24,000 nt of DNA. Origin: Candidatus Woesearchaeota archaeon (GTDB lineage Archaea > Nanobdellota > Nanobdellia > Woesearchaeales > WJKV01). Below, in pieces: positions 455-19,425 of this stretch. The position numbers and the translations under genes are program-made. Each line of letters begins with the position of its first letter. Position 1 is the first letter of the stretch. The notes below the pieces were generated by a model, which searched no databases, was not told the origin of the DNA, and saw nothing but the letters and a program-made list of their open reading frames with translations. The DNA lies in contig WJKV01000011.1 of assembly GCA_014728875.1 (NCBI GenBank), positions 55 to 24,054 on the forward strand. Direction: 5' to 3'.

Positions 455-477
455 GGAAAATTCCCTTGCAGCCTAGT

Positions 478-2377: not shown

Positions 2378-2403
2378 AAACCGCAATAAAAAAGAGGAGT
2401 CAG

Positions 2404-3888
2404 ATGAAAAAAGGCCAAGTCACACTGTTCATCATCATCGGAATTATTATCCTGGTAGTATTCTTTTTCTTGTTCTACATAACCCAAAGGTTGACTCCTG
2501 GCGAGCAGGAAATGGAGCAGTTGACTGTCGCAAAAAGCAAGCTGAGGAGCGCGCCTCTGCGTTATTATGTCGAGAGCTGTATCCAGAAATCTTTTGAAGA
2601 GGGTCTGAACATGATTTCCCTGCAGGGAGGCAGGATATTTATGGAACAGCCGTACAGCACTCTGCCCTGTTCTGCTGACGGGCAGAACAGCTGCACACCG
2701 GCTTCAAAAGGAGGTAGTGTTAAAAAAATTATAGGAAACAAAGAGTATCATGTGAATTATCTGATAACCAAGAATCCTAACATTTTTCCTCAGCACCAAT
2801 ATCCCAGAGAGCCGTGCGTAAAAAATTTCAGCTGGCCGTACTGCAATTTCACTTATGACAAGGATGCTGCTGTCGAACCCAGGCTCGGCTGGAATTATCT
2901 TCCTCCGTTGAAAGCAAGCAAAGGGTCTATTGAAGCCCAGCTGGAAAATTATGTTGCTAAGAAAACAAACGACTGCATAGATTTCGGAGAAATAACCAAT
3001 ATAACCGGCATCCCCTACAGGATCGGGGAAGGTGACGCAGAAGTTGACATTGTTTTCACTGCGCAAGATACAAGAATTATTGTGGATCTGCCTTTGCAGA
3101 TAACAGGCGCCGGCATGCAGACTACTTCTGATGTTGAGCATTTTGAATTGTTGACGAAGATGAAGTATGAATATCTGCATACTTTCATTTTCAACCTGAT
3201 AAACGAAGAAATAGCAGACTTGAACTTCAGCATCTCAGAAGATTATACAGAACTTGACAGCTACAGGCAAGGTTATTCGCTCACGATAGAAAAGGATACA
3301 GAAGCAAGGACCGGCGATGACATGATAATTATATCCGATGATAATATCCAAATAGACGGCAAGCCGTTAAAGTTCCAGTTCGTGCGCGAAGATGTGCCGC
3401 CTGTTCTTAATTATGTGACAGACGGCAGTGCTCCTGGCTATGACGCAATCTGGCAGTTCCCGCCGGATCCCAGTGTGCAGACGATGACAAAGACAATAAG
3501 ACCGGGCGCGGTCGACATGAACGAAGATGAACCCAATTTTATATTCTCTTACAGAGGATGGGGAAGAGATTATTTTGAGATGTTTGTCGCAGGGCAATTG
3601 AAAAGATGGAATCCTGGCCAGAATGAAGGATGGCAGTTTAACCCGAGCAATGGCCGCGGATCCATTGTTGTAAACAGGACAAGGGATACGAATCCTCCCA
3701 AACATAATTTCACTATCCGGGTAAGCGACGGACAATTGTTTGATCAACAGACAGTGAGATTATTCGTGGTTAACATTCCAGGGATGCCGGGCGCGCCAAC
3801 TGTTCCGCCTGCACCTGCTGCGCCGCCGGCATCAGGATTTCCCAGCCTGCCGCCGCCACCGCCAGCACCGACCACTGGTTCCTCTTAG
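2404..3888 (+). CDS. Large class III signal-peptide (pilin-like) protein with a cadherin/Ig-like module and a Pro-rich C-terminal tail
   Basis: The track ORF starts at 2257, but that start overlaps the previous gene. The in-frame ATG at 2404 is preceded by GAGGAG (about 2394) and yields MKKG|QVTLFIIIGIIILVVFFFLFYI, a class III signal with G at -1 and Q at +1. Near the C-terminus, NFTIRVSDGQLFDQQTVRLFVVN resembles the last strands of cadherin-like/He_PIG Ig domains. The protein ends in PGMPGAPTVPPAPAAPPASGFPSLPPPPPAPTTGSS. Confidence 0.8.
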   Translation: MKKGQVTLFIIIGIIILVVFFFLFYITQRLTPGEQEMEQLTVAKSKLRSAPLRYYVESCIQKSFEEGLNMISLQGGRIFMEQPYSTLPCSADGQNSCTPASKGGSVKKIIGNKEYHVNYLITKNPNIFPQHQYPREPCVKNFSWPYCNFTYDKDAAVEPRLGWNYLPPLKASKGSIEAQLENYVAKKTNDCIDFGEITNITGIPYRIGEGDAEVDIVFTAQDTRIIVDLPLQITGAGMQTTSDVEHFELLTKMKYEYLHTFIFNLINEEIADLNFSISEDYTELDSYRQGYSLTIEKDTEARTGDDMIIISDDNIQIDGKPLKFQFVREDVPPVLNYVTDGSAPGYDAIWQFPPDPSVQTMTKTIRPGAVDMNEDEPNFIFSYRGWGRDYFEMFVAGQLKRWNPGQNEGWQFNPSNGRGSIVVNRTRDTNPPKHNFTIRVSDGQLFDQQTVRLFVVNIPGMPGAPTVPPAPAAPPASGFPSLPPPPPAPTTGSS

Positions 3889-3914
3889 ATTTCTATATGC
3901 AGATTACCACAAGA

Positions 3915-3946
3915 TTTATAAACTAAATTATGTTCAAATTATAAAA
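3915..3946 (+). promoter_or_regulatory. Two TATA-like elements (TTTATAAA 3915..3922; TTATAAAA 3939..3946) upstream of the giant gene
   Basis: They sit in the 87-nt intergenic gap before the ATG at 3976. The proximal one is 30 nt from the ATG. The distal one would leave a leader containing GAGAGGGTTGG. This suggests an internal promoter for the giant gene. Confidence 0.35.
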
Positions 3947-3975
3947 ATCGGGTTGAAAGAGAGGGTTGGATAGGT

Positions 3976-4071
3976 ATGAAGAAAAGAGGTGGAAAGAGTA
4001 GAGTATCAAGATCATTGTTTTTGATTTTTCTCTTCTCACTATTTGTAATTTCAGCCTGTTTTGTTTCTGCA
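3976..4071 (+). other. Sec-type signal peptide of the giant protein (32 aa)
   Basis: Basic n-region (KKRGGKSRVSR), hydrophobic core LFLIFLFSLFVI, and a small-residue site VSA|T. Confidence 0.6.
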
Positions 4072-7000
4072 ACCTGCTGCGTGAATGAGCAGACAAGCTT
4101 CACAAGCACTGCTGTTGATGTTACATGCATTGATAACCTGCCAAGCACACAGTGTTTCAGCGGTTTCTTTTCAAATGCTACAACATGCAAGGATGTCCAG
4201 CAATGCGGCTGTTGTGTCTGCAATTATGGCAGTGCGAATCCTACTGTTTATAAAGGAGGGGATTTGAGGGTCAGCAACAATTTCTGCGCAGCTTTCTGCG
4301 CTCCTTATTCTTATAATCTTATTCCTGGTCTTACAACCGCGTCCTGCAGCCAACAGGAAAATGCGACAGGAATCAGCGGTTATGTTTTTGACAGTGACGG
4401 AAATCCTGTTCACGGCGCACAGGTCACAGAGACAGGGGGAAGCAGTGATGTGACAGATGCGCAGGGCAAGTATAGCTTGTCAGTTTTCCAGCAGACAACA
4501 ACAGTCACCGCTTCAAAGGCGAATGTCCAGAACAACATAAATGTAAATGTCGCAACAAAAAAGACAGGGTGGAACATAACCCTCGATCTGGCAGCAGTGA
4601 GCGCAGATCTCGTCGGAAAGATAACGCCCCTGATAAGCGGTGTTCCGAGTCCGACCCCTTTGTCGAATGTTGTTGTGACTGTGACAGACGGCGTGAATCA
4701 GTTTGCTACAGAGACAGACGTTGCAGGCGAGTACGAATTCATCGCCATACCCATCTCAGACTATGCATTGACAGCCAACAGGTGCGGATTTTTCCCTGAA
4801 AGCGCGCAGGTCTCTGTAACTGCGCCATTGACAAGAAAAGACATCTCATTAAGAAGCGCGCCGCAGGAAACATTGACCGGCGTTGTAAAAGATTTGCAGA
4901 ACCGCCCAGTGAAAGATGCAGATATAGCAATAAGTCCCAAAAGGGGCATTGTCCAGAAAAGCGATGAGCAGGGGATCTATCGGGTGACTAATCTGGACAG
5001 CAATTGCCAGTATACTGTAACTGCTACAAAAGCCCCGCAGTATCAGGACAGCTCAAAAACAAAGAGCATATATGCGACAGATCCATTGACAACAAACACT
5101 CTGGATTTCGTCCTTGAGCCCAGTGTGATGTTTGATTTCTGTACAGATATTGGAGACTGCCGGGGCGAAGATCTCATTCTTGGAACGCCGGATGACTGCG
5201 GCTGTCCGCCCAACTATGTTTGCAATCAATTGACAGGAAACTGTGACAGGAAGCCGACAATCGACTGCTGCGATTATGATTTCCTGTGCCAGCCGCCGCA
5301 GGCCAGGAGCGGAGTCACTGCGCAATGCGGGAGCGAAAAAGAGACTTGCAGCAATGTGTGCGCTGAAATTATTAATTGTCCAGCAGATGAAAAACTGAGC
5401 AATCAGAATACGGACGGCGTCTGCAAATGCGCAGGAGAAACAGTGACCATACTTCAAAGCCTTGCAGACCAGTATGGTTTTGAGAATACAGCAGGCAAAT
5501 ACTGTTGTCCGTTTTCTCCTGTAAGCATCAGCGAAGTGCCGTGCGAATTCCAGCAGAAAGCTGCAATCGTCGGGATTGTTGTGAGCAGGATCGACGGAGA
5601 GCCAATAGACGCAACAGTAACTGCTGATCCCAATACTGCCGGAGAACAAAGCACGATGAGCAGTTCTGTTGACGGTTCATATGTCTTGTTTGTGGACCCA
5701 AATATAGACCATACCATTAATTTTAAACGGCCTCCGCTGTACGAGCCAGAGACAAGAGTTGTCAGGGCTGGGAACCTGGCAGTGGGCGAAACTTTCACTC
5801 TGGATGTCAGTCTTGGAATCGTCGCGCGCACCTGCGACTATCCTTCCACCCCAGAAGTTCCTGATTTTGTAGCTGAAAATGTAGTATGTAAGAACCAGGC
5901 AAGACTTACATGGAACAATGAGTATTGCAGGAATACAGATGGTGTGCAGTCTTTTATAATTACTGCAGATAATTTGAACAAGACCTATGTTGTAAGTCCT
6001 GACAACGACGAACTGATAATAAAAGATCTGGACTGGAACGAACTGTATTCCTTTTCCATACAAGCCAAGTATTCAGATCATAACAGTCCGAGGACGAGCC
6101 GGGCAGTGGCTGTTTCTGGTTTTGATCCTGGAGACGAGGAATGCGATGGCAGGTGCGACAGTGAAGAGTTTTGTCTGGACAATACAAAAAGAAGAATGTG
6201 CGACCAGAACAATCATGTTACTACTGACCTGCTTTCGCCCAACTATTTCCCCGACTGTGAACAGCACCAGCAGACAACAGGCAGCGATTATGCATTTGTC
6301 TGCATCGGCTCCGGCGCGAACAAAAGAACAAAATGCGTGGAACAGAGCAAGTGCGGTTTTGACCTTACAAATCCGGTGCCTTTCTTGGGCCTGCTTTTCA
6401 ACAGCCTCAAGTGTTCAAAGAACCCCGCGACCAAGAATGACAGGGGTTGCTATATGGACAGGTCCGGCAGCGTGAAAAATTTCTGTTATCCTTGTCCTGA
6501 TTCAGAAAACATAACATGTTCGGATTACAAGAGCAAATATGCATGCGAGCAAAACAAGTGTCTTGTGCCAGAAGACTGTATATGGTATTCTCCTGAATTT
6601 ACCGGCATGGGCGAGGGCTTCTGCGTCGACAGCGATACTTTGAGCAAGACAAAATACAAGCAAAGAGAACAGATGACTGTCAATCTTTTGAATGAAACAA
6701 TAAAGCAGAGCAAGTGCAGTCTTTGTTCCAAGCAGGGCAAGATCTTCAATAATGTTGGCTGCGAACAGGACGCATGCAGCAGGCTGGGCTTCTGCTATGC
6801 AGAACTTGACAATAAGAACATAAGCAGCTGCGTGCAGTGCAGTTTCACTCCGCCTGTCACCACTTGCAACGATTTCAAGACAGAAGAAAGTTGTATCAGT
6901 GCGACAGGTGAAAATCAAGAATTCGTTCTATTCTCTTCTTCTCTTCCGGAAAGTGCAAAATACAGCGATGATGCCTGCGGCATCGGAAGATGCATCTGGG

Positions 7001-10000
7001 ACGATCAAAGAAACGGATGTTACAAAGATGGTAACGGTGACGGTCAAGCAGATTGTGTCACTATTGAATTTGGCGTGGAAGCTTTCAACCCGATTTGTGA
7101 GCTTGACATAATTCCTCCAACCACCACGCCAAACAGTGACACATTAATATTAGGAAATGCCTCGGACAGGAACACTGTGAATTTCACAGTGTCTGAGGCC
7201 ATTTCTAATTTTTATTATTGCATATACAAGGAAGGAGGGACCAGGTGTTCTGTAATGAAGAAGATCAGCGGCACAAATTCCAACCGAGTCAAAGGAAATG
7301 TTGTTTCTGTACGGCCTGTGGAAGAGTTTAAGAATGCAATATACAAAGAAGGAAACTACAGGATAAGATATTATGCAGAAGATGCGAGCAAGAACAAGGA
7401 ACTGCTGAAAGAAGTGGCTGTCTTTGTCGATACTAAAAAACCGGGCATCACTATACAGAACCAGTCAGTCTGTGTCAACTGCGATCTTCAGATCGACTGC
7501 AGTGCAGAAGAAAGCTATCTTTCCAAACTGGTGTTGAGCATACAGAGCGATGAACTGGTTGCATGCAAAGCATATTTCATAGAGCCGGGGGACAGTCTCG
7601 AGACAACAACACAGAAATCAGACCTGATGATAGACATTGCAACCAGCGGCATTCTTTCTTATCCGAGGGCCGCAGGAGCCTCTGGCCTGGAAGACGGCAA
7701 TTACAGGCTTTATCTTCAGTGCGAAGATGTGGTGGGAAACGAATTCAAGAAACAGTATTTTTTTAAGATTGACCAGCTGAAAGGAATAAAAAATGTCAAG
7801 CCAGTCGGTCCCATTAAAAACACTGCCGTGCGGTTTGAAGCAGACACTGTCAAACCTTCTGACTGCACTATTTCTGTAGACGGAGGGAGCAGGATAAAGA
7901 TGGACCAGTTGGCCGGCGGCAGAAAGCACGCCCTGGAGAAGAACTTTGTAGAGAATAGTTATCATTATTATAACATAAGATGCGATGAGAAATACAGCAT
8001 AACACCTAACAGATGCGACAGCGAAAGGTACGAATTCTCGATAGATAATAGTGCGCCTGCAACTGTTGCCAGAATTAACGACAGACTCTTTGACGAAGAC
8101 GGCTGGACGATTTTCTTGACTGATCCTGCCATTCTAAAACTTTACTCTACAGATGAAAGCGTCAAACAAAACAGGATACAGTTCGGGGCGGACCATATAG
8201 CGTACTGTTATAGGGAGGATCTTCTGCCGTGCGTGCCAGGACAGAGTGTTAACAGCTACAGGGTTTTTGCAGACGCGCAGTCAGGGACAGCAGAGATAAA
8301 GATTCCTGTGGATAAGAATCTTAAGATGTGCTATCATGCGATCGACAAGGGCGGAAGAAAAGAAACAACCAAGTGCGGCAAGATCTTGTTCACTGTGCCT
8401 CCTTCTGTGGACCTAATTTCGCCTGTGAACGATTATGTGACCAATAAACTGCACATAACAGTGAATGCGACGCATGACGCAGATAATGCGACAGATCCGT
8501 TGATAACAACTTTCAACGGCGAGGATTTCATCGCGGTCGCAGCGCAATTAATCGACAGCCAAATCTACGGGATCTTGACATTCCTGTTCCCGGGCCTTAA
8601 CCGGGTAAGTGCAAGAGTCAGGGACGGTGCCGGCGTCTTCGGAGAAGATACTGTTAATGTGTATTACGACAAGGAAGGCCCTTCTATACAGATGACTTCT
8701 GACGAAGTGATCGAATACAACCAGCCGTTCTTGCTGAGCGCAGAGATCAAGGATCTAGAATGGACCTCCATAGACACTGCTGACAATATCGGGGAAGTGA
8801 CAGATGCCGTGGTCGCAATACAAAGCCCTGTCATGAGCAGGACATACAATATGACAAAACAAGGCTCTATGTGGAGCGCTTACATTGTGCCTTCTGTCGA
8901 TTCTGCAGGCTTTGCAGATTTCCTGCCCGGCAAATACAGCATTACCTTCAATGCAAAAGACGGTTTTGGCAATGAAAATTCAAAGCAGTACGAGATAGAG
9001 ATAAAGGATACGATTCCTGCAAACATCACTATAGATCTTCTGACGCCGAACATTCCTCTGCCTCCTTTCAGGGAAGAGGATGTTTTCTATACGAAAGAAA
9101 GGATGCCTGTCATCCGGGTAAGGACGACAGAGCCTGCAGAATGCCAACTAAGGATAAGTTCTATAGCTCCCACAATAACCGAAGACTTTGTCACAAACGA
9201 CAGCAGGACCCATCTTTTCAGCAGCCAGAACTTGCTGAGCTTCAGTCCTGGAAAAGAACAGAGGTTCAGCGCACAGATTGTATGCAGGGATCTTTTTGCG
9301 CAGACAACACAGGATACGAACATTGTGATAGATTATGATGATGTTGCTCCTAATCTGCAGATATTCAGCAGTGAAGGAAAAAATAAGATACACAAAAAAG
9401 GGACTGTCTACTTATTGTCAGAAAGGAATAATGTCGGAGATCTTTCAACGAGAATCTCTGTGACTGACGCCAGGAGAGGAGAGGAAATAAAGTGCGGTTT
9501 GAACTGTTCAAACAGGGGGAAAAGCTGCGGAACGCATCATCAGAATTCGGTGCTGCCTGTGCTGGGTGAAGACACTTTCAAGCGTGTGCAGGAAGAGATA
9601 ATAGATTATGACCTGGAGGTAGATAAGACAGGCGAGTTTAATTATTTGCTGACATGCACGGATAAAGCCAAAAATGCCGCATCCGGAGAATTTACCATTC
9701 TTGTTGAAAAAGAAGAACCGACAGTCAACCTCACTCTTCCTACTATCGGACCTGAGCCTGGAATAAACCTGCAAAGCGCAGACACTGGCTCGCCTGTGAT
9801 TGCAGACATTGGTGCCAGGACCATCTATAACAAGCTTGGCGTCATAGCCGACAGCCAGAGAGAAAACTACAAAAAATTCATCATAGTGGACGGCAAGTCA
9901 GGCAATACAATACCCGTACAATTGATTGCAGACGTGAGCGAGAGGACTGTCTGTAGGTACAGCACTTCTATGCAGGACTTCAACCAGATGCAGAACAGGT

Positions 10001-13000
10001 TCTCTTCTGATGATTATGTATTTTATCCTAGAACCCCTTATCTGAGCCTTGCTGATGGCAGCACGTATACTTACTATGTCGGCTGCAGGGACGAGGCAGG
10101 AAATCTCGCAGCACCTTATACTGTCGATATTGAAGTGGATCTGCAGGAGCCTGTAAGAATATTTGATGCAGAACCTGCCGGCCATATCAACAATCTGCCT
10201 GTTGTCAATGCTTATACCTACAGAAATGTGCAGTGCACTTATGATCACGGCACAAAGACCGGTCTGCCGATGAGAACGATAAAAACCAGCAAAGGCTACT
10301 TGCATACCTCTGCACAATTCAGCGGAAATGTCTTGTTCGTCCCTGAAGGAACAGAGACTTCTGTTACTATCGATTGCGGGCAGGGCAGCGGTCTATTGCC
10401 TGCGACAGAAACAGTCCGCTTCACAGTCGACAAAACTTCGCCGAATATTGTTTTAAGCAGTCCTGTGCAGGGTCAGGCAGTAGATGCTGTTGTTGTTGAT
10501 CTGACAGGCAGCACAGAACCGTTAAGCGAGATTGATGTATATGTGAACAAGATATTCCATAGAACAATAAAGACAGAAAGAGAGGATTTCGAAGAAGAGA
10601 TATTTCTTGAGAGAGACGGAAATAATATCATTGATTTGTTTGTTATTGACAAGGCAGGCAACAAGGCATTGAAGACTGTTTCAGTCGATGCAAACGGTCC
10701 GAATCTTGCAGTGAAACAGATTGTGCCTGTCAGCGGAAAAATAGGAGATCTTACAGGCATAGTCGCATCCATAGACGGCGATGATTTCAACGAAGAAATG
10801 AGCGAGTTCACAGTTCTGAGGAACGATATAGAGATCAGCGGAGAGCTGTCGTACTCTCCTGAAAGAAATTCGTGGAAATTTGTGCCTGACCAGGGCTATC
10901 TCTCAGACGGAGACTATCTGATAGCCGCCATTCCTGTAAATGATTTTGGAGAGAAAGGTTTTGGAAAGAGAGCAGAGTTTACAGTCCAGGAGGATGCGCC
11001 GAAGATAGAATGGATTTATCCAGAAAAAGAAAATGGTGTTTTGAGCAGCCGGCTCTTAAAACCCGCGGTTGAGTTCAGCACAATAAGTTCTACTGCGCCT
11101 GTCACGGACGCCGAGGTATACGTGCAGAACAGGATCAGGGACGGCACTGGTTTTGACCGGAAAAGATACAATTTTGCAAGAACAAAAGATGATGCGTTCA
11201 CTTCCAAACTTGACATGGCAGAAGGGATCAATTATCTGCGCATCAAGGCAAGAAATTTGTACGGGGAAACTGATTATCTAAGGGGAGTTTTTGTTGACAC
11301 AGCAGGTCCGAGGGCAAATATAGAACCTAAAGGCACAATAACAATGACCCGGCCGGAGATAACTGCGAAGTTTCAGGAAGATGTCAAACTGAAATATTAC
11401 GACCTGATTGAAGTCGGAAGCATACTGCAGAATCTTACAAGAGGAATGAGCGTGACCAAGAAATCCATGAAAGAATACGTATTTGACATAGGCGCGCAGT
11501 TAAGGAGCGGAACTTATCTGTTCACAATAGGTGTAGAAGATGCGTTAGGCAATCCTGAAGAATCACAGCAGGAATTCGTAGTCAATGTCGGCGAACTGGA
11601 TCTTGAACTGCTGAATCCGAAATATGAAGTTAGTCCAGAGCCTGTGTTTGATTTCAGATTGAAGTCCAACCAGGATGCGAACTGCAGATACAGCCAGATT
11701 TACGATTCCGGCGTTCACACTTCGATATATACTTTCAATGGCCTGTTCGACCAGACAGGCCAAGTTATACATGTTATAGAAAACCTTGATACTATAACTG
11801 CTGAATATCCTGGCTACAAGTCTTTCTATGTGTGGTGCGAAAGCGTTCTGTCCAAGACAATTTCGCAGCCTGTGGAATACAGATTGAGCATTGACGAGAC
11901 AAAGCCTGAGATTATAGATCTGTATGCAGAGCCTGCGCCTGTGACAGAACAACCTCTGCAGACGACATTGTACGTTGAAACTGACGACGAAACAAGATGC
12001 AGATTTGAATGCAATACAGATGTCGTTAACTATAACAGCATGGAGAACGAGTTCTCAGAGGAATTCTCCACCACACACAGTGTGGAAATGAATCTTGTGG
12101 ACAAGACCGATTATGAATGCAATATTGCCTGCATGAACCTGGCTGAGCTTGTATCTGAAACAGAAAAATTAGAATTTAAAGCAGATACAGGCCTGGGGGC
12201 GGGTCTCAGGATAGTCTCTCCTGAACATGACAGTGCGTATCCGCCGGGACCTGTAGAACTATTGATAAAAAGCCAGAATCTTGCACAATGCAGCTATACA
12301 TTGGATGATCTGCCCCCTGTAGAATTCCCTGCGATCAGCCGGCAATTCAACACGACATTTGAAGACCTTTTGGAGGGCGAGCATAATCTTGAAGTGAGCT
12401 GTGTTTACAGCGTTGGAAGCGATACAATAAGCAGCACTTTCTATATTGATGATACTCCGCCGTCTGAAATCTGGGTAGAGGACGGAGACTATGCCTGCAG
12501 CGGCAGCCTGATAAATGTTACCTGGGAGGCGGAAGATCCAGAGAGCGGAATACTAGAATATGAGTATGCAGTGAGGAGCGAGCTTTCAGAGGATTATGAT
12601 GTGCGGAACTTCACAAAGACGAAAGCAACAACAGTGGAAACTCCTTTGCAGAACCTTTCTTCCGGCAGGTATTATTTTGCAGTAAGAGCAAAAAACAGGG
12701 CAGGACTGTGGACAGAATTGATAGAAAGCGACGGCGTCCTGGTTGATGATACTCTGAATATCTGCGCAGAAGAAGCGCCGCCAATAGCACAGTTGCAAGT
12801 AGAAGAACTTGCAGGAAAAACTGTTGTATCTATCGTATGCAGTGATGAGAAAACCGGGTGCGCGCCCGATATGTACTATGGCACATCGCCTGACATGGGT
12901 GCCTGCGAACCCGCTCAGCTTTACAATGGAAGCTTAGAGTTGTATGAAACGCAGCAGTTTTGTTATCTTGTCAGCGATCTTGCTGGAAACGAAGTGACCG

Positions 13001-14499
13001 GAGAAGAGACTATAATTGTACTGCCTGCGGAACTGGTGGGCTGTCCAAACGATCTTGACTGCGACGAGATAATAAATGAAGAGGATCCTGACATTGACGG
13101 CGACGGCATCCTGAATTGTGAAGACGACGATGATGATAACGACGGCATCCTGGACTATGACCTCGCGACTAATTACAATACCGATTTTGATGATGATAAC
13201 GACGGCGTGAATGATGATTTAGATTATCATACAAACAATGATCTTGACCTGGACGGCCTGCCTAACGGCGTGGACGATGATGACGATTGCGACGGAATTA
13301 GTGACTGCGATGATCCTGACGATGACAATGACGGGATATTGGATGTAGATGATCTGGATGACGATAACGACGGTGTTCCTGATGTTGATGATCAAGATTC
13401 AGGAGCTTCCCTGACACCAGATGACGACAACGATCTGGACGATGACGGGATCTCTAATGCAATAGACGAAGACATTGACGGAGACGGGATCCTGAACGAG
13501 GACGACGCTGACATGGACAATGACGGCGTTCCCGACTGCATTGATCAGGACAATGACAATGACGGAATCCTGGACAAGGAAGATCCGGATTACAGCGATG
13601 ATTTTGACGAGGACGGTTTGCCCAACAGGTGGGAGGAACAATACGGTCTGGACAAGGTGAACAGTGCAGATGCAGGCATGGACAACGACAATGACGGTTT
13701 GAAGAATGTAGACGAATTCAAGTTTAAGACAAATCCTTTGAATAAAGACACCGACGAGGACGGGCACACTGATTACGACGAGCTGTTCAAATATGAAGAA
13801 CAGTACGATCCTGCAGATCCTGAGAGCAAACCGCCGAGCAGGTTCCTGTTCTATCTCATACTTGTGATAATCCTTTTAATCGTAGGTTTCATTGGATATT
13901 ATGGTTATCAGATCTTGTATGTCAAACGAAAAGAGAAATTGGCAGCAAAAAGGGCAGAGGAACAAAGAAGATTGAGAGAAGAAGCAAGAAGAAAGGCGGT
14001 GCCGCCTCCGAAGCCGGCAAAGAAGCCAGCCAAAGCAGCAGCGCCTGCGCCCCCTAAACCGAAGAAGCTTTCTCCGCTGGAAAAAAGAATCTTGAAGATG
14101 AAAAGGATCAGGGAGCAGAGACGAAAGGAAAGAGAAGAGATGAGAGATAGACTGTTCGGCAAGTTTGAGACTGCTGAAGAAAAGAAAAAAGAGAAAGAAA
14201 AGGAGAAGAAAGCTGAAAAGAAGCCTGAAGAAAAAGCAGAAAAGAAAGAAAAACCAAAGAAAGCTGAGCTGAAGAAGAAGCCCGCTAAACCTGCAAAACC
14301 TGCCCTGGCTCCAGAGTTCAAGAAACTGAGCCAGATGGTGAAAAAAGGCAGGAAAATAAAGACGATCGCCCAAAAATTAGAAGACTTGAAGATGCCCAAG
14401 AAAAAGGTTGACAGGCTGGGCGAGCTCATAGAAAAAAGAAGAGGCAAAAAAGCCAAGGACAAGTTTGATGAACTTGTTGCGCTCAAGAAAAAGAGATGA
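3976..14499 (+). CDS. Giant (3507 aa) modular cell-surface protein, putative adhesin, type I membrane topology
   Basis: Uninterrupted 10.5 kb ORF. Sec signal MKKRGGKSRVSRSLFLIFLFSLFVISACFVSA|TCC, then multiple beta-sandwich modules, Cys-rich segments and an Asp-rich Ca-binding repeat array. A single C-terminal TM (FLFYLILVIILLIVGFIGYYGYQILYV) is followed by KRKEK, consistent with the positive-inside rule, and a long charged tail. I found no HExxH, GDSGG or other catalytic signature. Confidence 0.92.
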   Translation: MKKRGGKSRVSRSLFLIFLFSLFVISACFVSATCCVNEQTSFTSTAVDVTCIDNLPSTQCFSGFFSNATTCKDVQQCGCCVCNYGSANPTVYKGGDLRVSNNFCAAFCAPYSYNLIPGLTTASCSQQENATGISGYVFDSDGNPVHGAQVTETGGSSDVTDAQGKYSLSVFQQTTTVTASKANVQNNINVNVATKKTGWNITLDLAAVSADLVGKITPLISGVPSPTPLSNVVVTVTDGVNQFATETDVAGEYEFIAIPISDYALTANRCGFFPESAQVSVTAPLTRKDISLRSAPQETLTGVVKDLQNRPVKDADIAISPKRGIVQKSDEQGIYRVTNLDSNCQYTVTATKAPQYQDSSKTKSIYATDPLTTNTLDFVLEPSVMFDFCTDIGDCRGEDLILGTPDDCGCPPNYVCNQLTGNCDRKPTIDCCDYDFLCQPPQARSGVTAQCGSEKETCSNVCAEIINCPADEKLSNQNTDGVCKCAGETVTILQSLADQYGFENTAGKYCCPFSPVSISEVPCEFQQKAAIVGIVVSRIDGEPIDATVTADPNTAGEQSTMSSSVDGSYVLFVDPNIDHTINFKRPPLYEPETRVVRAGNLAVGETFTLDVSLGIVARTCDYPSTPEVPDFVAENVVCKNQARLTWNNEYCRNTDGVQSFIITADNLNKTYVVSPDNDELIIKDLDWNELYSFSIQAKYSDHNSPRTSRAVAVSGFDPGDEECDGRCDSEEFCLDNTKRRMCDQNNHVTTDLLSPNYFPDCEQHQQTTGSDYAFVCIGSGANKRTKCVEQSKCGFDLTNPVPFLGLLFNSLKCSKNPATKNDRGCYMDRSGSVKNFCYPCPDSENITCSDYKSKYACEQNKCLVPEDCIWYSPEFTGMGEGFCVDSDTLSKTKYKQREQMTVNLLNETIKQSKCSLCSKQGKIFNNVGCEQDACSRLGFCYAELDNKNISSCVQCSFTPPVTTCNDFKTEESCISATGENQEFVLFSSSLPESAKYSDDACGIGRCIWDDQRNGCYKDGNGDGQADCVTIEFGVEAFNPICELDIIPPTTTPNSDTLILGNASDRNTVNFTVSEAISNFYYCIYKEGGTRCSVMKKISGTNSNRVKGNVVSVRPVEEFKNAIYKEGNYRIRYYAEDASKNKELLKEVAVFVDTKKPGITIQNQSVCVNCDLQIDCSAEESYLSKLVLSIQSDELVACKAYFIEPGDSLETTTQKSDLMIDIATSGILSYPRAAGASGLEDGNYRLYLQCEDVVGNEFKKQYFFKIDQLKGIKNVKPVGPIKNTAVRFEADTVKPSDCTISVDGGSRIKMDQLAGGRKHALEKNFVENSYHYYNIRCDEKYSITPNRCDSERYEFSIDNSAPATVARINDRLFDEDGWTIFLTDPAILKLYSTDESVKQNRIQFGADHIAYCYREDLLPCVPGQSVNSYRVFADAQSGTAEIKIPVDKNLKMCYHAIDKGGRKETTKCGKILFTVPPSVDLISPVNDYVTNKLHITVNATHDADNATDPLITTFNGEDFIAVAAQLIDSQIYGILTFLFPGLNRVSARVRDGAGVFGEDTVNVYYDKEGPSIQMTSDEVIEYNQPFLLSAEIKDLEWTSIDTADNIGEVTDAVVAIQSPVMSRTYNMTKQGSMWSAYIVPSVDSAGFADFLPGKYSITFNAKDGFGNENSKQYEIEIKDTIPANITIDLLTPNIPLPPFREEDVFYTKERMPVIRVRTTEPAECQLRISSIAPTITEDFVTNDSRTHLFSSQNLLSFSPGKEQRFSAQIVCRDLFAQTTQDTNIVIDYDDVAPNLQIFSSEGKNKIHKKGTVYLLSERNNVGDLSTRISVTDARRGEEIKCGLNCSNRGKSCGTHHQNSVLPVLGEDTFKRVQEEIIDYDLEVDKTGEFNYLLTCTDKAKNAASGEFTILVEKEEPTVNLTLPTIGPEPGINLQSADTGSPVIADIGARTIYNKLGVIADSQRENYKKFIIVDGKSGNTIPVQLIADVSERTVCRYSTSMQDFNQMQNRFSSDDYVFYPRTPYLSLADGSTYTYYVGCRDEAGNLAAPYTVDIEVDLQEPVRIFDAEPAGHINNLPVVNAYTYRNVQCTYDHGTKTGLPMRTIKTSKGYLHTSAQFSGNVLFVPEGTETSVTIDCGQGSGLLPATETVRFTVDKTSPNIVLSSPVQGQAVDAVVVDLTGSTEPLSEIDVYVNKIFHRTIKTEREDFEEEIFLERDGNNIIDLFVIDKAGNKALKTVSVDANGPNLAVKQIVPVSGKIGDLTGIVASIDGDDFNEEMSEFTVLRNDIEISGELSYSPERNSWKFVPDQGYLSDGDYLIAAIPVNDFGEKGFGKRAEFTVQEDAPKIEWIYPEKENGVLSSRLLKPAVEFSTISSTAPVTDAEVYVQNRIRDGTGFDRKRYNFARTKDDAFTSKLDMAEGINYLRIKARNLYGETDYLRGVFVDTAGPRANIEPKGTITMTRPEITAKFQEDVKLKYYDLIEVGSILQNLTRGMSVTKKSMKEYVFDIGAQLRSGTYLFTIGVEDALGNPEESQQEFVVNVGELDLELLNPKYEVSPEPVFDFRLKSNQDANCRYSQIYDSGVHTSIYTFNGLFDQTGQVIHVIENLDTITAEYPGYKSFYVWCESVLSKTISQPVEYRLSIDETKPEIIDLYAEPAPVTEQPLQTTLYVETDDETRCRFECNTDVVNYNSMENEFSEEFSTTHSVEMNLVDKTDYECNIACMNLAELVSETEKLEFKADTGLGAGLRIVSPEHDSAYPPGPVELLIKSQNLAQCSYTLDDLPPVEFPAISRQFNTTFEDLLEGEHNLEVSCVYSVGSDTISSTFYIDDTPPSEIWVEDGDYACSGSLINVTWEAEDPESGILEYEYAVRSELSEDYDVRNFTKTKATTVETPLQNLSSGRYYFAVRAKNRAGLWTELIESDGVLVDDTLNICAEEAPPIAQLQVEELAGKTVVSIVCSDEKTGCAPDMYYGTSPDMGACEPAQLYNGSLELYETQQFCYLVSDLAGNEVTGEETIIVLPAELVGCPNDLDCDEIINEEDPDIDGDGILNCEDDDDDNDGILDYDLATNYNTDFDDDNDGVNDDLDYHTNNDLDLDGLPNGVDDDDDCDGISDCDDPDDDNDGILDVDDLDDDNDGVPDVDDQDSGASLTPDDDNDLDDDGISNAIDEDIDGDGILNEDDADMDNDGVPDCIDQDNDNDGILDKEDPDYSDDFDEDGLPNRWEEQYGLDKVNSADAGMDNDNDGLKNVDEFKFKTNPLNKDTDEDGHTDYDELFKYEEQYDPADPESKPPSRFLFYLILVIILLIVGFIGYYGYQILYVKRKEKLAAKRAEEQRRLREEARRKAVPPPKPAKKPAKAAAPAPPKPKKLSPLEKRILKMKRIREQRRKEREEMRDRLFGKFETAEEKKKEKEKEKKAEKKPEEKAEKKEKPKKAELKKKPAKPAKPALAPEFKKLSQMVKKGRKIKTIAQKLEDLKMPKKKVDRLGELIEKRRGKKAKDKFDELVALKKKR
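4072..4371 (+). other. Cys-rich N-terminal head domain
   Basis: TCCVNEQ...VTCIDNLPSTQCFSGFFSNATTCKDVQQCGCCVCNYG...FCAAFCAP...ASCSQQ: many Cys within about 100 aa directly after the signal peptide. Confidence 0.5.
4372..5130 (+). repeat. Three tandem CarboxypepD_reg-like beta-sandwich modules
   Basis: ISGYVFDSDGNPVHGAQVTETGGSSDVTDAQGKYSLSV; LVGKITP...LSNVVVTVTDGVNQFATETDVAGEYEFIAIP; LTGVVKDLQNRPVKDADIAISPKRGIVQKSDEQGIYRVTNL. Each fits the family signature G-x-V-x-D-x-x-G-x-P-[IV]-x-x-A-x-[IV]...[TS]D-x-x-G-x-[YF]. Confidence 0.65.
5131..5565 (+). other. Cys-rich linker/knot segment
   Basis: FDFCTDIGDCRGEDLILGTPDDCGCPPNYVCNQLTGNCDRKPTIDCCDYDFLCQPP...QCGSEKETCSNVCAEIINCPADE...GVCKCAGE...KYCCPF...VPCEF. 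Confidence 0.5.
5566..5830 (+). other. Fourth CarboxypepD_reg-like module
   Basis: IVGIVVSRIDGEPIDATVTADPNTAGEQSTMSSSVDGSYVLFV matches the same signature as the modules at 4372..5130. Confidence 0.55.
5845..6120 (+). other. Fibronectin type III-like module
   Basis: PEVPDFVAENVVCKNQARLTWNNE...VQSFIITADNLNKTYVVSPDNDELIIKDLDWNELYSFSIQAKYSDHNSP shows the classic FN3 landmarks: P at the start, LxW, Y-x-[FV]-x-[IV]-x-A. Confidence 0.55.
6139..7098 (+). other. Extended Cys-rich region (31 Cys in about 320 aa by my count) with an internal duplicated motif
   Basis: ECDGRCDSEEFC...MCDQ... through ...NPIC. Two copies of a [IT]TC-x-D-[YF]-K-x(4)-C...C-I-W motif: ITCSDYKSKYACEQNKCLVPEDCIW (about 6508..6590) and TTCNDFKTEESCISATG...ACGIGRCIW (about 6862..7010). 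Confidence 0.5.
7110..12456 (+). repeat. About 16 divergent Ig-like beta-sandwich modules (roughly 90-200 aa each)
   Basis: A boundary motif hydrophobic-x-[IV]-[DE]-x(2,3)-P-x-[IV] recurs at about 7420 (VFVDTKKPGITI), 8035 (FSIDNSAPATV), 8660 (VYYDKEGPSIQM), 8995 (IEIKDTIPANITI), 9322 (IVIDYDDVAPNLQI), 9700 (ILVEKEEPTVNL), 10420 (FTVDKTSPNIVL), 10680 (VSVDANGPNLAV), 10978 (FTVQEDAPKIEW), 11288 (VFVDTAGPRANI), 11883 (LSIDETKPEIIDL) and 12440 (FYIDDTPPSEIWV). Weaker boundaries are at about 8400, 10125, 11575 and 12170. Many modules also carry an early C-[RQST]-[YFL] and a late Y-x-[YFL]-x-[VIA]-x-C-x-D-x-x-G-N pair. Confidence 0.6.
12457..12750 (+). other. FN3/Ig-like module with W-x-A-x-D-x-x-SGI-x-x-Y signature
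   Basis: PPSEIWVEDGDYACSGSLINVTWEAEDPESGILEYEYAVRSE...LSSGRYYFAVRAKNRAGLWTELIESDGVLVDD. Confidence 0.55.
13042..13788 (+). repeat. Thrombospondin type 3-like Asp-rich Ca-binding repeat array (about 14 D-x-D-x-D-G-x-x-[DN] units)
   Basis: DPDIDGDGILNCED, DDDNDGILDYD, DDDNDGVNDDLD, DLDLDGLPNGVDDD, DDCDGISDCDD, DDDNDGILDVDD, DDDNDGVPDVDD, DDDNDLDDDGISNAIDE, DIDGDGILNEDD, DMDNDGVPDCID, DNDNDGILDKED, DFDEDGLPNRWEEQYGLD, DNDNDGLKNVDEFKFKTNPLNKD, DTDEDGHTDYDELF. At the DNA level there are repeated GAYGAYGAYAAYGACGG units. Confidence 0.75.
13843..13923 (+). other. C-terminal transmembrane anchor of the giant protein
   Basis: FLFYLILVIILLIVGFIGYYGYQILYV is 27 uncharged hydrophobic residues, followed immediately by KRKEK. 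Confidence 0.75.
13924..14496 (+). other. About 190-aa Lys/Glu/Arg/Ala/Pro-rich low-complexity cytoplasmic tail (histone H1/AKP-repeat-like composition)
   Basis: KRKEKLAAKRAEEQRRLREEARRKAVPPPKPAKKPAKAAAPAPPKPKK...EEKKKEKEKEKKAEKKPEEKAEKKEKPKKAELKKKPAKPAKPALAP...KRRGKKAKDKFDELVALKKKR. The DNA at about 14175..14285 is a strongly purine-rich tract on the + strand. Confidence 0.7.
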
Positions 14500-14505
14500 A
14501 TTAAG

Positions 14506-15021
14506 ATGATTTTCAAGAAAAAAAGAGGTCAGATAGAAGCAAGGATTGTGATATATGTATTGGCAGTGTTCATAGCAGGGACAATCTTGATCTATGGGTA
14601 TACTGTCATCAAAGGGCTGGTAGGAACCCAGGAAGATATACTTTTGCTGACTTTCAAGGAGGACTTAAAGGCAAAAGTCGAAGAAAAGTCGTACGAATTC
14701 AGGTCTAGCGAGAAACTGACTTTCACACTGCCCAAGAAATATACGTCTGTATGCTATGGGGATGTGCGCAGGCTGGCCGACAACCAGTATCTTATAAACC
14801 TGATGCCGCCGGGCCTGACCCTGATAAAGGACAGTTTTTCAGACAGTGTGCCGTATAATTTCTTTTTGATGGAAAGAGGCCTTATAATGAGAGATGCGTT
14901 CCATGTCGGAGATCTTTTCATTCCTGACAATTTTGAATGTGTCAATGTTACTGATGGACAATTGAACCTGCAGTTCACTGCGCAGGGCAGGCAGGGCGTG
15001 CAGATAAACAGGTGGGACTAG
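14506..15021 (+). CDS. Class III signal-peptide (type IV pilin-like) protein, 171 aa
   Basis: MIFKKKRG|QIEARIVIYVLAVFIAGTILIYGY: short basic prepeptide, G at -1, Q at +1, then about 20 hydrophobic residues. The ATG is 6 nt after the giant gene stop. Confidence 0.8.
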   Translation: MIFKKKRGQIEARIVIYVLAVFIAGTILIYGYTVIKGLVGTQEDILLLTFKEDLKAKVEEKSYEFRSSEKLTFTLPKKYTSVCYGDVRRLADNQYLINLMPPGLTLIKDSFSDSVPYNFFLMERGLIMRDAFHVGDLFIPDNFECVNVTDGQLNLQFTAQGRQGVQINRWD

Positions 15022-16107: not shown

Positions 16108-16134
16108 GCAGAAAGGAAATTTAAAAAATCCAAG

Positions 16135-19263: not shown

Positions 19264-19425
19264 ATGAACCTGAATAACCTAATTAAAAGAGATAAAAAAG
19301 GCGAACTGAGCGTAAGAACAATAATCATAATAATTATTGTGATAGCCACTCTTGTAGCTCTATTGTTAATCCTTGCGTCAAAAGGAAAACTCATGACAGA
19401 AATCTGGGGGAAAGGTCCGTTCTGA
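19264..19425 (+). CDS. Small class III signal-peptide (pilin-like) protein, 53 aa
   Basis: The track ORF begins at a TTG (19237). The first ATG (19264) gives MNLNNLIKRDKKG|ELSVRTIIIIIIVIATLVALLLILASKGKLMTEIWGKGPF. Confidence 0.6.
   Translation: MNLNNLIKRDKKGELSVRTIIIIIIVIATLVALLLILASKGKLMTEIWGKGPF

What the first reader, a model, noticed from the sequence alone, without database searches (positions are those of the whole stretch)
3976..14499. 3507-aa modular surface protein embedded in the pilin-like operon
Seen: a single 10.5 kb ORF. In order it encodes a Sec signal, a Cys-rich head, 3+1 CarboxypepD_reg-like modules, FN3-like modules, a 31-Cys region, about 16 Ig-like modules, an Asp-rich Ca-binding array, one TM helix and a charged tail.

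I found no protease, nuclease or glycosidase motif, so it looks purely structural or adhesive. That differs from the enzymatic giant proteins reported from some nanohaloarchaea (SPEARE-type).

Giant adhesins are known from small-genome symbionts. What is distinctive is its placement: the ATG of the next pilin-like gene is 6 nt after its stop, and a pilin-like gene precedes it by 87 nt. This suggests co-expression and possibly physical coupling with a filament. In a small genome, about 10.5 kb for one gene is a large investment.
Basis: partly seen in the sequence, partly recalled or inferred. Interest (0 to 1): 0.75.

Follow-up and report, generated by a model that had tools for sequence, protein, structure and literature searches.

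The report
Giant archaeal adhesin beside pilin-like genes
The 10.5-kb gene is real and encodes a non-enzymatic, membrane-anchored surface fibre of a Woesearchaeota-type archaeon; it belongs to a large unnamed family that is always followed by the same four pilin-like genes, so it is probably part of a conserved cell-attachment apparatus.

Summary
ORF 3976-14499 encodes 3507 aa. In order it has a Sec signal, a Cys-rich head, 3+1 CarboxypepD_reg modules, an fn3-like module, a 330-aa core with 31 Cys, about 19 Ig-like modules, 13 DxDxDG repeats, one TM helix and a 191-aa K/R/E-rich tail.

It is not an assembly artefact. A Woesearchaeota MAG carries a collinear ortholog (78% identity, no indels across the extracellular part). 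Synonymous sites are saturated (pS 0.74) while pN is 0.13. The DNA contains no repeats.

No enzymatic domain was found by Pfam, NCBIfam, PDB sequence search or an AlphaFold model of the core (pLDDT 85).

New here: the protein belongs to a large family, with 191 representative clusters of 2000-6300 aa. They share a collinear fn3 + Cys-rich + Ig core. In 11 of 11 loci with downstream sequence, the giant is followed by orthologs of the same four class-III-signal proteins.

Best reading: a Ca-stiffened, membrane-anchored tether working with a pilin-like complex. The function is inferred, not shown. An S-layer-like scaffold is the main rival.

Large Ig-rich proteins in archaeal type IV pilus loci are already described, so this is a new variant of a known kind.

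The parts
1175..2377 (+). Secreted (Sec-signal) Cys-containing protein, 400 aa; upstream member of the cluster
   Evidence: Its homologs lie upstream of the giant in L008 (E 8e-68), L010 and L007. The same position is occupied in L013-L016. No Pfam or NCBIfam family matched.
2404..3888 (+). Class-III-signal (pilin-like) protein, 494 aa, Pro-rich C-terminus; the true start is MKKGQ at 2404, not the longest-ORF start at 2257
   Evidence: The ortholog in L001 starts at MKKGQVTLFIIIG. Motif and hydropathy fit a class III signal. Homologs lie directly upstream of the giant in L007-L010 and in L013, L014 and L016.
3889..3975 (+). 87-nt A/T-rich spacer with TATA-like boxes (TTTATAAA 3915-3922; ATTATAAAAA about 3938-3947); possibly the giant gene's own promoter (inference)
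   Evidence: Read directly from the sequence. Not tested.
3976..14499 (+). Giant surface protein gene, 3507 aa plus stop
   Evidence: Collinear orthologs are L003 (3502 aa, 78% identity) and L012 (3507 aa). pS is 0.74 against pN 0.13.
3976..4071 (+). Sec-type signal peptide (aa 1-32, ...VSA|TCC)
   Evidence: An N-terminal hydrophobic segment occurs in 116 of 152 family sequences.
4072..4365 (+). Cys-rich head (aa 33-130, 12 Cys; starts with a GCC/TCC motif)
   Evidence: The GCC-type motif occurs in 57 family members. pN is 0.06 against L003. No family match.
4366..5130 (+). Three CarboxypepD_reg (transthyretin-like beta-sandwich) modules (aa 131-385)
   Evidence: Pfam PF13620 E 4e-24 with 3 stretches. 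They are mutually homologous, HHalign 99.7%.
5131..5550 (+). Second Cys-rich region (aa 386-525, 18 Cys)
   Evidence: No family match. 90% identical to L003.
5551..5820 (+). Fourth CarboxypepD_reg module (aa 526-615)
   Evidence: Pfam E 4.7e-4. HHalign 98.7% to module 1.
5821..6120 (+). fn3-like module (aa 616-715); start of the family-wide conserved core
   Evidence: Pfam fn3 E 2.7e-6. The AlphaFold beta-sandwich has pLDDT 82-96.
6121..7110 (+). Cys-rich core domain (aa 716-1045, 31 Cys); the family signature; fold unassigned
   Evidence: About 27 Cys are invariant or nearly so in 42-76 homologs. AlphaFold pLDDT is 53-90, with short hairpins and helices. No Pfam, NCBIfam or PDB match. No profile similarity to any other module.
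7111..13002 (+). About 19 divergent Ig-like modules (aa 1046-3009), the stalk
   Evidence: xDxxxP boundaries. The first two modules are modelled as beta-sandwiches with pLDDT about 90. The others match them at HHalign 90-99%. Pfam gives weak Big_13, Glucodextran_B, DUF4625, Y_Y_Y and fn3 hits. Foldseek hits to GhpA, SiiE and fibronectin.
13003..13842 (+). Asp-rich array with 13 DxDxDGxxDxxD (thrombospondin-type-3-like, presumed Ca-binding) motifs (aa 3010-3289)
   Evidence: Pfam TSP3_bac is only E 0.23 here. TSP_3 or TSP3_bac hits are on record for homologs.
13843..13923 (+). Single transmembrane helix (aa 3290-3316)
13924..14496 (+). Cytoplasmic K/R/E-rich tail (aa 3317-3507) with the conserved motif RDRLFGKF (aa 3396-3403)
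   Evidence: The R-x2-3-LF-x2-F motif occurs in 32 of 59 family tails. This is the fastest-evolving part (50-75% identity, pN 0.25).
14506..15021 (+). Quartet gene 1: class-III-signal protein, 171 aa
   Evidence: Orthologs occupy the same position in L005-L009 (E 1e-11 to 1e-46) and in L003, L012, L015 and L016.
15022..16107 (+). Quartet gene 2: class-III-signal protein, 361 aa
   Evidence: Orthologs at E 2e-37 to 3e-101. No PDB or family match.
16135..16653 (+). Quartet gene 3: class-III-signal protein, 172 aa
   Evidence: No PDB match.
16654..17214 (+). Quartet gene 4: class-III-signal protein, 186 aa
17375..24000 (+). Eleven further same-strand genes. Ten are class-III-like (17375, 18365, 19264, 19674, 20049, 20345, 21085, 22016, 22573, 23184->end). 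One has an N-terminal TM only (19429).
   Evidence: Most have orthologs in the same order in L005, and several in L008 and L009.

Best explanation
The gene encodes a type-I membrane-anchored, non-enzymatic giant surface fibre of a Woesearchaeota-type (DPANN) archaeon.

Topology. The Sec signal exports the N-terminus. The single C-terminal helix keeps the protein in the cell's own membrane, and the charged tail stays in the cytoplasm. This topology follows from the sequence.

Architecture, from the membrane outwards (inferred):
- 13 DxDxDG repeats bind Ca2+ and stiffen the base.
- About 19 Ig-like beta-sandwiches form a stalk of the order of 80-100 nm if extended.
- The conserved fn3 + Cys-rich core and the distal CarboxypepD_reg and Cys-rich head form the interaction end.

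Genomic context. The gene is the centrepiece of a conserved surface-apparatus locus. It is probably transcribed from its own A/T-rich promoter. It is probably co-transcribed with four conserved class-III-signal (type IV pilin-like) proteins, since the first starts 6 nt after its stop, and with about ten further pilin-like genes downstream (inferred).

Most likely function: to tether the small cell to a partner cell or surface, acting together with a minor-pilin-like complex. The conserved RxxLFxxF tail motif would link the tether to a cytoplasmic partner.

Shown: gene integrity, purifying selection, domain order, family membership, conserved synteny. Inferred: adhesion, Ca binding, co-transcription, contact with the pilin-like proteins.
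For: The gene is real and constrained.
- It has a collinear ortholog with no indels across the extracellular part (about 3300 aa), and pS 0.74 against pN 0.13.
- L012 carries a second ortholog of 3507 aa.
- P0001 and P0002 tile the full length from two other samples.
- The DNA has no repeats.

Architecture.
- Pfam finds CarboxypepD_reg x4, fn3 and Big_13.
- The AlphaFold model of aa 616-1270 has pLDDT 85 and reads beta-sandwich, Cys-rich region, two beta-sandwiches.
- All 19 stalk modules match those sandwiches.
- Foldseek's best hits are fibrous Ig-repeat proteins, including GhpA, SiiE, fibronectin and S-layer proteins.
- There are 13 DxDxDG motifs, one TM helix and a charged tail.

No enzyme was found. 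Six homologs have no enzymatic family on record.

Family. 191 representative clusters match, 122 of them at E<1e-10. Of the sequences examined, 119 share the 655-aa core collinearly.

Synteny.
- The quartet follows the giant in the window, L003, L005-L009, the P0047 contig, L012, L015 and L016.
- Class-III-like N-termini occur throughout these loci.
- The gaps from the giant through quartet gene 4 are 0-27 nt.

Organism. The related loci carry archaeal markers: RNase P p30, MCM, TFIIE and Hjc. The named relatives are Candidatus Woesearchaeota.

Precedent. Large adhesin-like or S-layer-like proteins occur in archaeal type IV pilus loci.
Against: - There is no experimental or expression evidence.
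- Against L003 the distal head is the most conserved part (84-90% identity) and overall dN/dS is low. That is unusual for a host-recognition adhesin. It fits a conserved ligand or a structural role equally well.
- No type IV filament ATPase, platform protein or prepilin peptidase is encoded in the window or in any related locus. Assembly of a filament is therefore unproven.
- The neighbours match no pilin family. Their pilin-like status rests on N-terminal motif and hydropathy only.
- The first 615 aa could not be modelled (pLDDT 30).
- Pfam TSP3 is not significant on this protein.
Confidence: 0.6

Rival explanations
1. It is a cell-envelope scaffold, an S-layer-like or stalk protein. The C-terminal helix anchors it and the Ig stalk sets the width of a pseudo-periplasm. 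The conserved head and core self-associate into a canopy, and the pilin-like proteins are envelope-associated accessory parts.
For: - A C-terminal TM anchor with many Ig-like folds and 23 N-glycosylation sequons is typical of archaeal S-layer anchoring proteins.
- Makarova et al. interpret a large C-terminal-TM protein in Thermoproteales pilus loci as S-layer-like, with many conserved cysteines.
- There is strong purifying selection and the head is the most conserved part.
- Foldseek hits include S-layer proteins.
Against: - At 3507 aa, with family members up to 6362 aa, it is far larger than described S-layer subunits (general knowledge).
- The length and the number of head modules vary widely across the family, which is odd for a lattice.
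- There is no expression or lattice evidence.
Confidence: 0.2
2. It is a filament-borne adhesin. It would be displayed on or primed by a type IV pilus-like filament built from the quartet, as PilY1 is by the bacterial minor pilins FimU-PilVWX.
For: - Four conserved pilin-like proteins, one of them about twice the size of the others, are tightly linked to a large secreted protein. This mirrors minor-pilin operons.
- The linkage holds in 11 of 11 loci.
- PilY-like adhesins are reported in archaeal pilus loci.
Against: - The giant has a C-terminal TM helix followed by a 191-aa charged cytoplasmic tail. This orientation is opposite to that of pilins, and the helix is unlikely to be extracted from the membrane.
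- No PilY1 or DUF2341 domain was found.
- No assembly ATPase or platform protein is encoded nearby.
Confidence: 0.1
3. It carries a hidden enzymatic or lytic module, SPEARE-like or like the murein-transglycosylase giants of Woese- and Pacearchaeota, in one of the unassigned Cys-rich regions.
For: - About 570 aa (33-130, 386-525, 716-1045) have no family assignment.
- Large murein-lytic proteins are reported in the same clades.
- Weak Foldseek hits to transglutaminase 2 share its order of sandwich, core and two barrels.
Against: - There are no SLT, peptidase or nuclease hits at E up to 5.
- The core has no invariant His, Ser or Glu; the conserved residues are Cys, Asp, Asn, Gly and aromatics.
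- The transglutaminase hits have TM 0.13-0.15 and rmsd above 30 A, so they are driven by the beta-sandwiches.
Confidence: 0.04
4. It is an assembly chimera, a repeat-expanded artefact or a decaying pseudogene.
For: Nothing beyond the general risk for long modular genes in metagenome assemblies.
Against: - Full-length collinear orthologs exist in independent assemblies (L003, L012) and in tiled fragments from other samples.
- There are no DNA repeats.
- Synonymous sites are saturated while amino-acid divergence is low.
Confidence: 0.01

Closest known systems
Large S-layer-like or adhesin-like proteins encoded in archaeal type IV pilus (TFF) loci (Makarova et al. 2016, PMC4858521; archaeal TFF census, bioRxiv 10.64898/2026.04.22.720090: system 2, subsystem 4G arCOG05616)
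   Same: A large secreted Ig-rich protein with many conserved cysteines and, in some cases, a C-terminal TM helix. It is encoded next to several class-III-signal proteins.
   Different: - The described cases sit beside the pilus ATPase and platform genes, mostly in Thermoproteales, methanogens and haloarchaea. Here no ATPase or platform gene lies within the locus.
- The host clade here is Woesearchaeota.
- The protein is 2-6 times larger.
- It has a family-specific Cys-rich core and a conserved cytoplasmic tail motif.
- Sequence relatedness to arCOG05616 was not tested.
Bacterial giant Ca-binding Ig-repeat adhesins (SiiE, LapA/MpIBP type) and the Aureispira grappling-hook protein GhpA
   Same: Long strings of divergent Ig-like modules, acidic Ca-type motifs and a distinct distal end. 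SiiE and GhpA are among the best Foldseek hits.
   Different: - Those proteins are secreted by type I or type IX systems and held at the outer membrane.
- This one uses a Sec signal and its own C-terminal TM helix with a cytoplasmic tail.
- It has no RTX or T1SS signal.
- Its Ca-type motifs are concentrated in one membrane-proximal array.
SPEARE proteins of Nanohaloarchaeota
   Same: A giant surface protein of a DPANN archaeon, presumed to act in host contact.
   Different: None was found here.
[quoted passage not shown] 2021, PMC8204110)
   Same: Same clades, up to 3000 aa, extracellular, proposed to act in attachment.
   Different: That family is defined by a lytic transglycosylase domain. 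No such domain is present in this protein or on record for six homologs.
PilY1 with the minor pilins FimU-PilV-PilW-PilX (bacterial type IVa pili)
   Same: A large secreted protein with Ca-type sites, encoded in one operon with four pilin-like proteins.
   Different: - No PilY1 beta-propeller or DUF2341 domain is present.
- The giant is membrane-anchored.
- Gene order and phylogenetic domain differ.
- The resemblance is an analogy of operon logic only.

Membership tests
SPEARE-type enzymatic giant proteins (Nanohaloarchaeota) | Serine protease and restriction-endonuclease-type domains within the giant protein | tested here: not met
   No peptidase or nuclease family matched the whole protein or ten segments at E up to 5.
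fam00969 murein-lytic giants of Woese- and Pacearchaeota | Murein-like lytic transglycosylase (SLT) domain | tested here: not met
   No SLT hit. None is on record for homologs.
Archaeal pilus-locus-associated large S-layer-like or adhesin-like proteins | Large secreted protein rich in Ig-like folds and conserved cysteines | tested here: met
   About 19 Ig-like modules and 111 Cys, with about 27 core Cys conserved.
Archaeal pilus-locus-associated large S-layer-like or adhesin-like proteins | Encoded next to class-III-signal (pilin) genes | tested here: met
   One such gene lies upstream and 14 downstream in the window. The link is conserved in 11 of 11 loci.
Archaeal pilus-locus-associated large S-layer-like or adhesin-like proteins | Same locus holds the TFF ATPase and platform (TadC/FlaJ-like) genes | tested here: not met
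   No such family was found in the window proteins scanned. None appears in the called genes of L005-L011. The rest of each genome could not be seen.
Archaeal pilus-locus-associated large S-layer-like or adhesin-like proteins | Sequence homology to the named arCOGs (such as arCOG05616) | not tested
   No arCOG library was available.
Type IV pilin-like (class III signal) proteins - applies to the neighbours | Short basic N-terminus, a [KR][GA] cleavage motif, then about 20 hydrophobic residues | tested here: met
   A regex plus hydropathy scan finds 15 window genes. The same pattern holds in the related loci.
Type IV pilin-like (class III signal) proteins - applies to the neighbours | Match to a curated pilin family, or processing by a prepilin peptidase | tested here: not met
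   No Pfam, NCBIfam or PDB match. Processing cannot be tested with these tools.
RTX/T1SS giant adhesins (SiiE, LapA, MpIBP) | C-terminal RTX/T1SS secretion signal and outer-membrane retention module | tested here: not met
   The protein has an N-terminal Sec signal and a C-terminal TM helix with cytoplasmic tail. No RTX family hit.
RTX/T1SS giant adhesins (SiiE, LapA, MpIBP) | Tandem Ig-like extender modules | tested here: met
Thrombospondin type 3 / bacterial TSP3 repeats | Repeated DxDxDGxxDxxD Ca-binding motif recognised by the family model | tested here: inconclusive
   13 motif copies by regex, but PF18884 scores only E 0.23 and PF02412 gives no hit on this protein. Weak or faint TSP_3 or TSP3_bac hits are on record for homologs.
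PilY1-type pilus adhesins | PilY1 C-terminal beta-propeller or DUF2341 domain; no membrane anchor | tested here: not met
   No such domain was found, and the protein has a TM helix plus cytoplasmic tail.
Archaeal S-layer proteins | Forms a 2-D lattice; among the most abundant proteins | not testable with these tools
   Needs proteomics, transcriptomics or cryo-ET.

The most novel reading that the evidence does not exclude
The giant and the four conserved pilin-like proteins together form a dedicated attachment organelle specific to Woesearchaeota-type DPANN archaea. In it, a short type IV pilus-like (minor-pilin-type) assembly is mechanically coupled to a membrane-anchored 100-nm tether. The conserved cytoplasmic RxxLFxxF motif relays attachment to an intracellular partner. 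This would be the main host-contact machine of a large, uncultivated archaeal clade, built around a Cys-rich domain with a new fold.
Probability: 0.15. Interest if true: 0.8.

Novelty: new variant of a known kind. Interest (0 to 1): 0.55.

Why it matters
How DPANN archaea attach to their partners is largely unknown for the uncultivated Woesearchaeota. This analysis turns a single odd gene into a defined, testable unit with four features:
- A large family of giant surface proteins with a conserved signature core that no current domain library covers.
- A fixed partnership with four class-III-signal proteins.
- A conserved position next to RNase P p30 in five of the loci examined, including the window.
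- A conserved cytoplasmic motif.

Together these give concrete targets for metatranscriptomics, structure prediction of complexes, and labelling in enrichment cultures. If the locus proves to be the host-contact apparatus, it could also serve as a genomic marker for lifestyle. The general idea of a big Ig-rich protein beside archaeal pilin genes is already in the literature, which limits the surprise.

Tried and rejected
1. The search for homologous proteins with the full 3507 aa timed out. With aa 1080-2280 it found only two close partial orthologs. With the 8-sequence core profile it found nothing. This reflects the limits of the word index, because the exhaustive HMMER search found 191 clusters.
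2. The AlphaFold run on aa 30-1160 with a 2-sequence alignment failed (pLDDT 30), so nothing was taken from it. A 76-sequence alignment was too large to submit. The 42-sequence alignment worked.
4. PDB sequence searches with the Cys-rich core, the Ig region and two quartet profiles found nothing.
5. Pfam and NCBIfam scans of the neighbours gave no pilin family.
6. I considered that the Amidase_3-like neighbour (21085-22023) indicates attack on bacterial cell walls. I rejected it as evidence because the Zn-ligand motif DPGHGG reads DPGRGG here and in L003, and is absent from the L005 ortholog.
7. Cluster look-ups gave almost no names. Only two members are named Candidatus Woesearchaeota.
A 5-sequence profile gave 6 loci.
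9. Literature searches found no description of this family.
Full report
**Observation**

The window has one uninterrupted ORF at 3976-14499 on the + strand, with an ATG start and 3507 codons. Its TGA stop ends at 14499 and the next gene's ATG is at 14506. The preceding gene ends at 3888, 87 nt upstream. Every gene from 1175 to the end of the window is on the same strand.

- The N-terminus is Sec-like (...VSA|TCC). Apart from that signal, only aa 3290-3316 is hydrophobic enough to span a membrane.
- Pfam finds four CarboxypepD_reg stretches, three in aa 133-385 and one in aa 531-613, with E 2e-26. It also finds fn3 at aa 639-705 and Big_13 at aa 2485-2536.
- Region 716-1045 contains exactly 31 Cys.
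- Segment 3010-3289 has 91 Asp and 13 DxDxDGxxDxxD motifs.
- The 191-aa tail has 73 K+R and 26 E.
- The Ig-like region holds about 19 modules rather than about 16.

The module count rests on three results. An xDxxxP boundary recurs every 85-145 aa from aa 1043 to 2824. AlphaFold models the first two modules as beta-sandwiches with pLDDT about 90. Each remaining module matches one of those two in profile-profile comparison at 90-99% probability. The module profiles were built by iterative search within the family, so they may have recruited one another. That itself indicates homology among the modules.

**Is the gene real?**

Yes.
- A genome-collection scan found a full-length ortholog in a Candidatus Woesearchaeota MAG (L003, JAHWHE010000026.1).
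- The two proteins are 78% identical, with no gaps across the extracellular part (about 3300 aa).
- Synonymous sites are saturated (pS 0.74) while pN is only 0.13. Every region is under purifying selection, and the tail and signal peptide are the loosest.
- A metagenome contig (L012) carries another ortholog of exactly 3507 aa.
- Two partial proteins from other samples tile the whole length.
- The DNA has no direct repeat of 30 nt or more and one trivial 43-nt tandem array.
- At protein level only the Asp-rich part and the tail are self-similar.

Chimera, repeat collapse and pseudogene are therefore excluded for practical purposes.

**Is there a hidden enzyme?**

I found none.
- Pfam and NCBIfam on the whole protein, and Pfam on ten overlapping segments at E up to 5, return only beta-sandwich or Ig-type families.
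- PDB sequence searches are empty.
- The region with no family match at all is the Cys-rich core. It was modelled from a 42-sequence alignment (mean pLDDT 85, pTM 0.66). The model reads fn3-like sandwich, about 330 aa of short hairpins and helices, then two sandwiches.
- In alignments of 42-76 homologs the conserved residues of the core are about 27 Cys plus Asp, Asn, Gly, Lys and aromatics. No His, Ser or Glu is invariant.
- Foldseek against the PDB returns fibrous Ig-repeat proteins: GhpA, SiiE, fibronectin, cytokine receptors and S-layer proteins. Its weak transglutaminase hits have TM about 0.14 and rmsd above 30 A, and I discount them.

Limits of this test:
- The first 615 aa could not be modelled.
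- The Cys-rich domain could not be searched on its own.

**The family**

An exhaustive HMMER search with aa 716-1915 found 191 representative clusters at E<=1e-3, and 122 at E<=1e-10.
- Median length is about 2050 aa and the longest member is 6362 aa.
- Of the sequences examined, 119 share the whole 655-aa block aa 616-1270 collinearly.
- A second conserved block covers aa 2550-3000.
- The head, the middle of the stalk and the Asp-rich, TM and tail end are shared by fewer members.
- Many members have the signal peptide, 80-140 Cys, a C-terminal TM helix and a charged tail.
- Members with a source name are Candidatus Woesearchaeota.
- Other loci carry archaeal markers: MCM, TFIIE, Hjc and RNase P p30.
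- In some loci the protein is split into two or three consecutive ORFs: head and core, then stalk, then TSP3 + TM + tail.
- I found no paper describing this family.

**Genomic context**

The four genes after the giant encode proteins of 171, 361, 172 and 186 aa. Each starts with a short basic stretch, a [KR][GA] motif and about 20 hydrophobic residues, which is the class III (prepilin-like) pattern.

Orthologs of all four follow the giant in the same order in L005-L009, with blastp E from 1e-11 to 1e-101. The same arrangement appears in L003, the P0047 contig, L012, L015 and L016, judged there by gene sizes and N-termini. That is 11 of 11 loci in which downstream sequence is available, at giant-protein identities down to about 27-33%.

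Further findings on the locus:
- The window holds ten more class-III-like genes downstream. One is an unlisted 53-aa ORF at 19264-19425, and another starts at 23184 and runs off the end.
- Upstream there is a Sec-signal protein (1175-2377) and a class-III-like protein. The latter's true start is 2404, as shown by its ortholog.
- Both upstream genes have homologs in the same position in most other loci.
- RNase P p30 lies just before the cluster in the window, L008, L013, L014 and L015.
- None of the neighbours matches a curated pilin family or a solved structure.
- No type IV filament ATPase, platform protein or prepilin peptidase is encoded in any of these loci.

**How it most likely works**

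The topology follows from the sequence: N-terminus outside, one C-terminal anchor helix, charged tail inside. The rest is inference. The membrane-proximal DxDxDG array would bind Ca2+ and stiffen the base. About 19 Ig-like modules would form a long stalk. The conserved fn3 + Cys-rich core and the CarboxypepD_reg and Cys-rich head would be the interaction end.

The 6-nt gap after the giant, with gaps of 0-27 nt through the quartet, suggests co-transcription and translational coupling with the quartet. The 87-nt A/T-rich spacer contains TATA-like boxes that could be the giant gene's own promoter.

I favour a membrane-anchored tether that works with a minor-pilin-like complex, at confidence 0.6.

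The main rival is an S-layer-like envelope scaffold, at 0.2. Three things favour it:
- the anchor type;
- the N-glycosylation sequons;
- the observation that the head is the most conserved part between close orthologs (84-90% identity, against 67-85% for the stalk).

A filament-borne, PilY1-like role (0.1) fits the operon logic. It conflicts with the TM helix and the 191-aa cytoplasmic tail.

**Comparison with what is known**

- Large Ig-rich, Cys-rich, sometimes C-terminally anchored proteins in archaeal type IV pilus loci have been described (PMC4858521; bioRxiv 10.64898/2026.04.22.720090). The kind is therefore known.
- This case differs from those in five ways: the clade, the size, the signature Cys-rich core, the fixed quartet and the lack of adjacent assembly genes.
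- It is not a SPEARE protein and not one of the murein-transglycosylase giants reported for Woese- and Pacearchaeota. The defining domains of both were tested and are absent.
- It works like bacterial Ig-repeat Ca-dependent adhesins but lacks their secretion and anchoring modules.

**Verdict**

The novelty is a new variant of a known kind. Interest is moderate (0.55), mainly because the analysis defines a widespread, conserved and testable surface-apparatus locus in an uncultivated archaeal clade.

Noticed in passing
window 21085-22023 (orthologs L003 18091-19038, L005 20475-21452): A class-III-like N-terminus is fused to an Amidase_3-like domain (Pfam E 2.8e-9). The canonical Zn-ligand motif DPGHGG reads DPGRGG in the window and in L003, and is absent from the L005 ortholog. 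It is probably a degenerate, non-catalytic amidase fold, so it is weak evidence for attack on bacterial walls.
   Followed up: partly
window about 14161-14184 (giant aa 3396-3403, RDRLFGKF): The otherwise fast-evolving cytoplasmic tail carries a short motif, R-x2-3-L-F-x2-F. The motif recurs in 32 of 59 family tails at 27-40% overall identity. This suggests a conserved cytoplasmic binding partner.
   Followed up: partly
window 2257-2403 versus 2404: The longest ORF of the upstream gene starts at 2257 and overlaps the preceding gene by 121 nt. Orthologs start at the MKKGQ codon (2404), which gives a 494-aa class-III-signal protein and a 26-nt intergenic gap.
   Followed up: yes
window 19264-19425: An unlisted 53-aa ORF (MNLNNLIKRDKKG|ELSVRTIIIIIIVIATLVALLLIL...) has a class-III-like N-terminus. 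A similar small gene sits at L005 18170-18400. It may be a very short pilin-like subunit.
   Followed up: partly
L009 10001-32563; L011 10001-26039; contig of P0047: In several family loci the 'giant' is split into two or three consecutive ORFs, for example 6285 + 1217 aa and 2012 + 2935 + >=931 aa. The pieces correspond to head and core, stalk, and TSP3 + TM + tail. The pilin-like quartet still follows in L009 and the P0047 contig; in L011 the sequence ends inside the third ORF. Whether this reflects gene fission or fusion, or sequencing frameshifts, was not resolved.
   Followed up: no
window 466-1113; L008 3757-4329; L013 4732-5370; L014 3842-4396; L015 694-1260: The RNase P p30 subunit gene lies immediately upstream of the surface-protein cluster in five loci of widely different sequence identity. 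This is an unexpectedly stable linkage between a housekeeping gene and a surface locus.
   Followed up: partly
window 14506-17214 and orthologs: The four quartet proteins have a conserved Glu shortly after the predicted cleavage site (G|QIE, G|AIE, G|QME, or G|QIQTLE). This recalls the conserved Glu5 of bacterial type IV pilins.
   Followed up: no
giant aa 100-500 versus 1100-2400 (window 4270-5475 versus 7270-11175): Between the window and L003 the distal head is more conserved (84-90% identity) than the stalk (67-85%). This is the reverse of what is usual for host-recognition adhesins.
   Followed up: partly
L010 295-4095; L011 1-7976; contig of P0047: The secreted protein upstream of the giant is much larger in other loci (1266-2768 aa). 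There it carries Laminin_G_3, Disintegrin, PKD and Cu-binding_MopE hits, so the locus holds more than one large Cys-rich surface protein.
   Followed up: no
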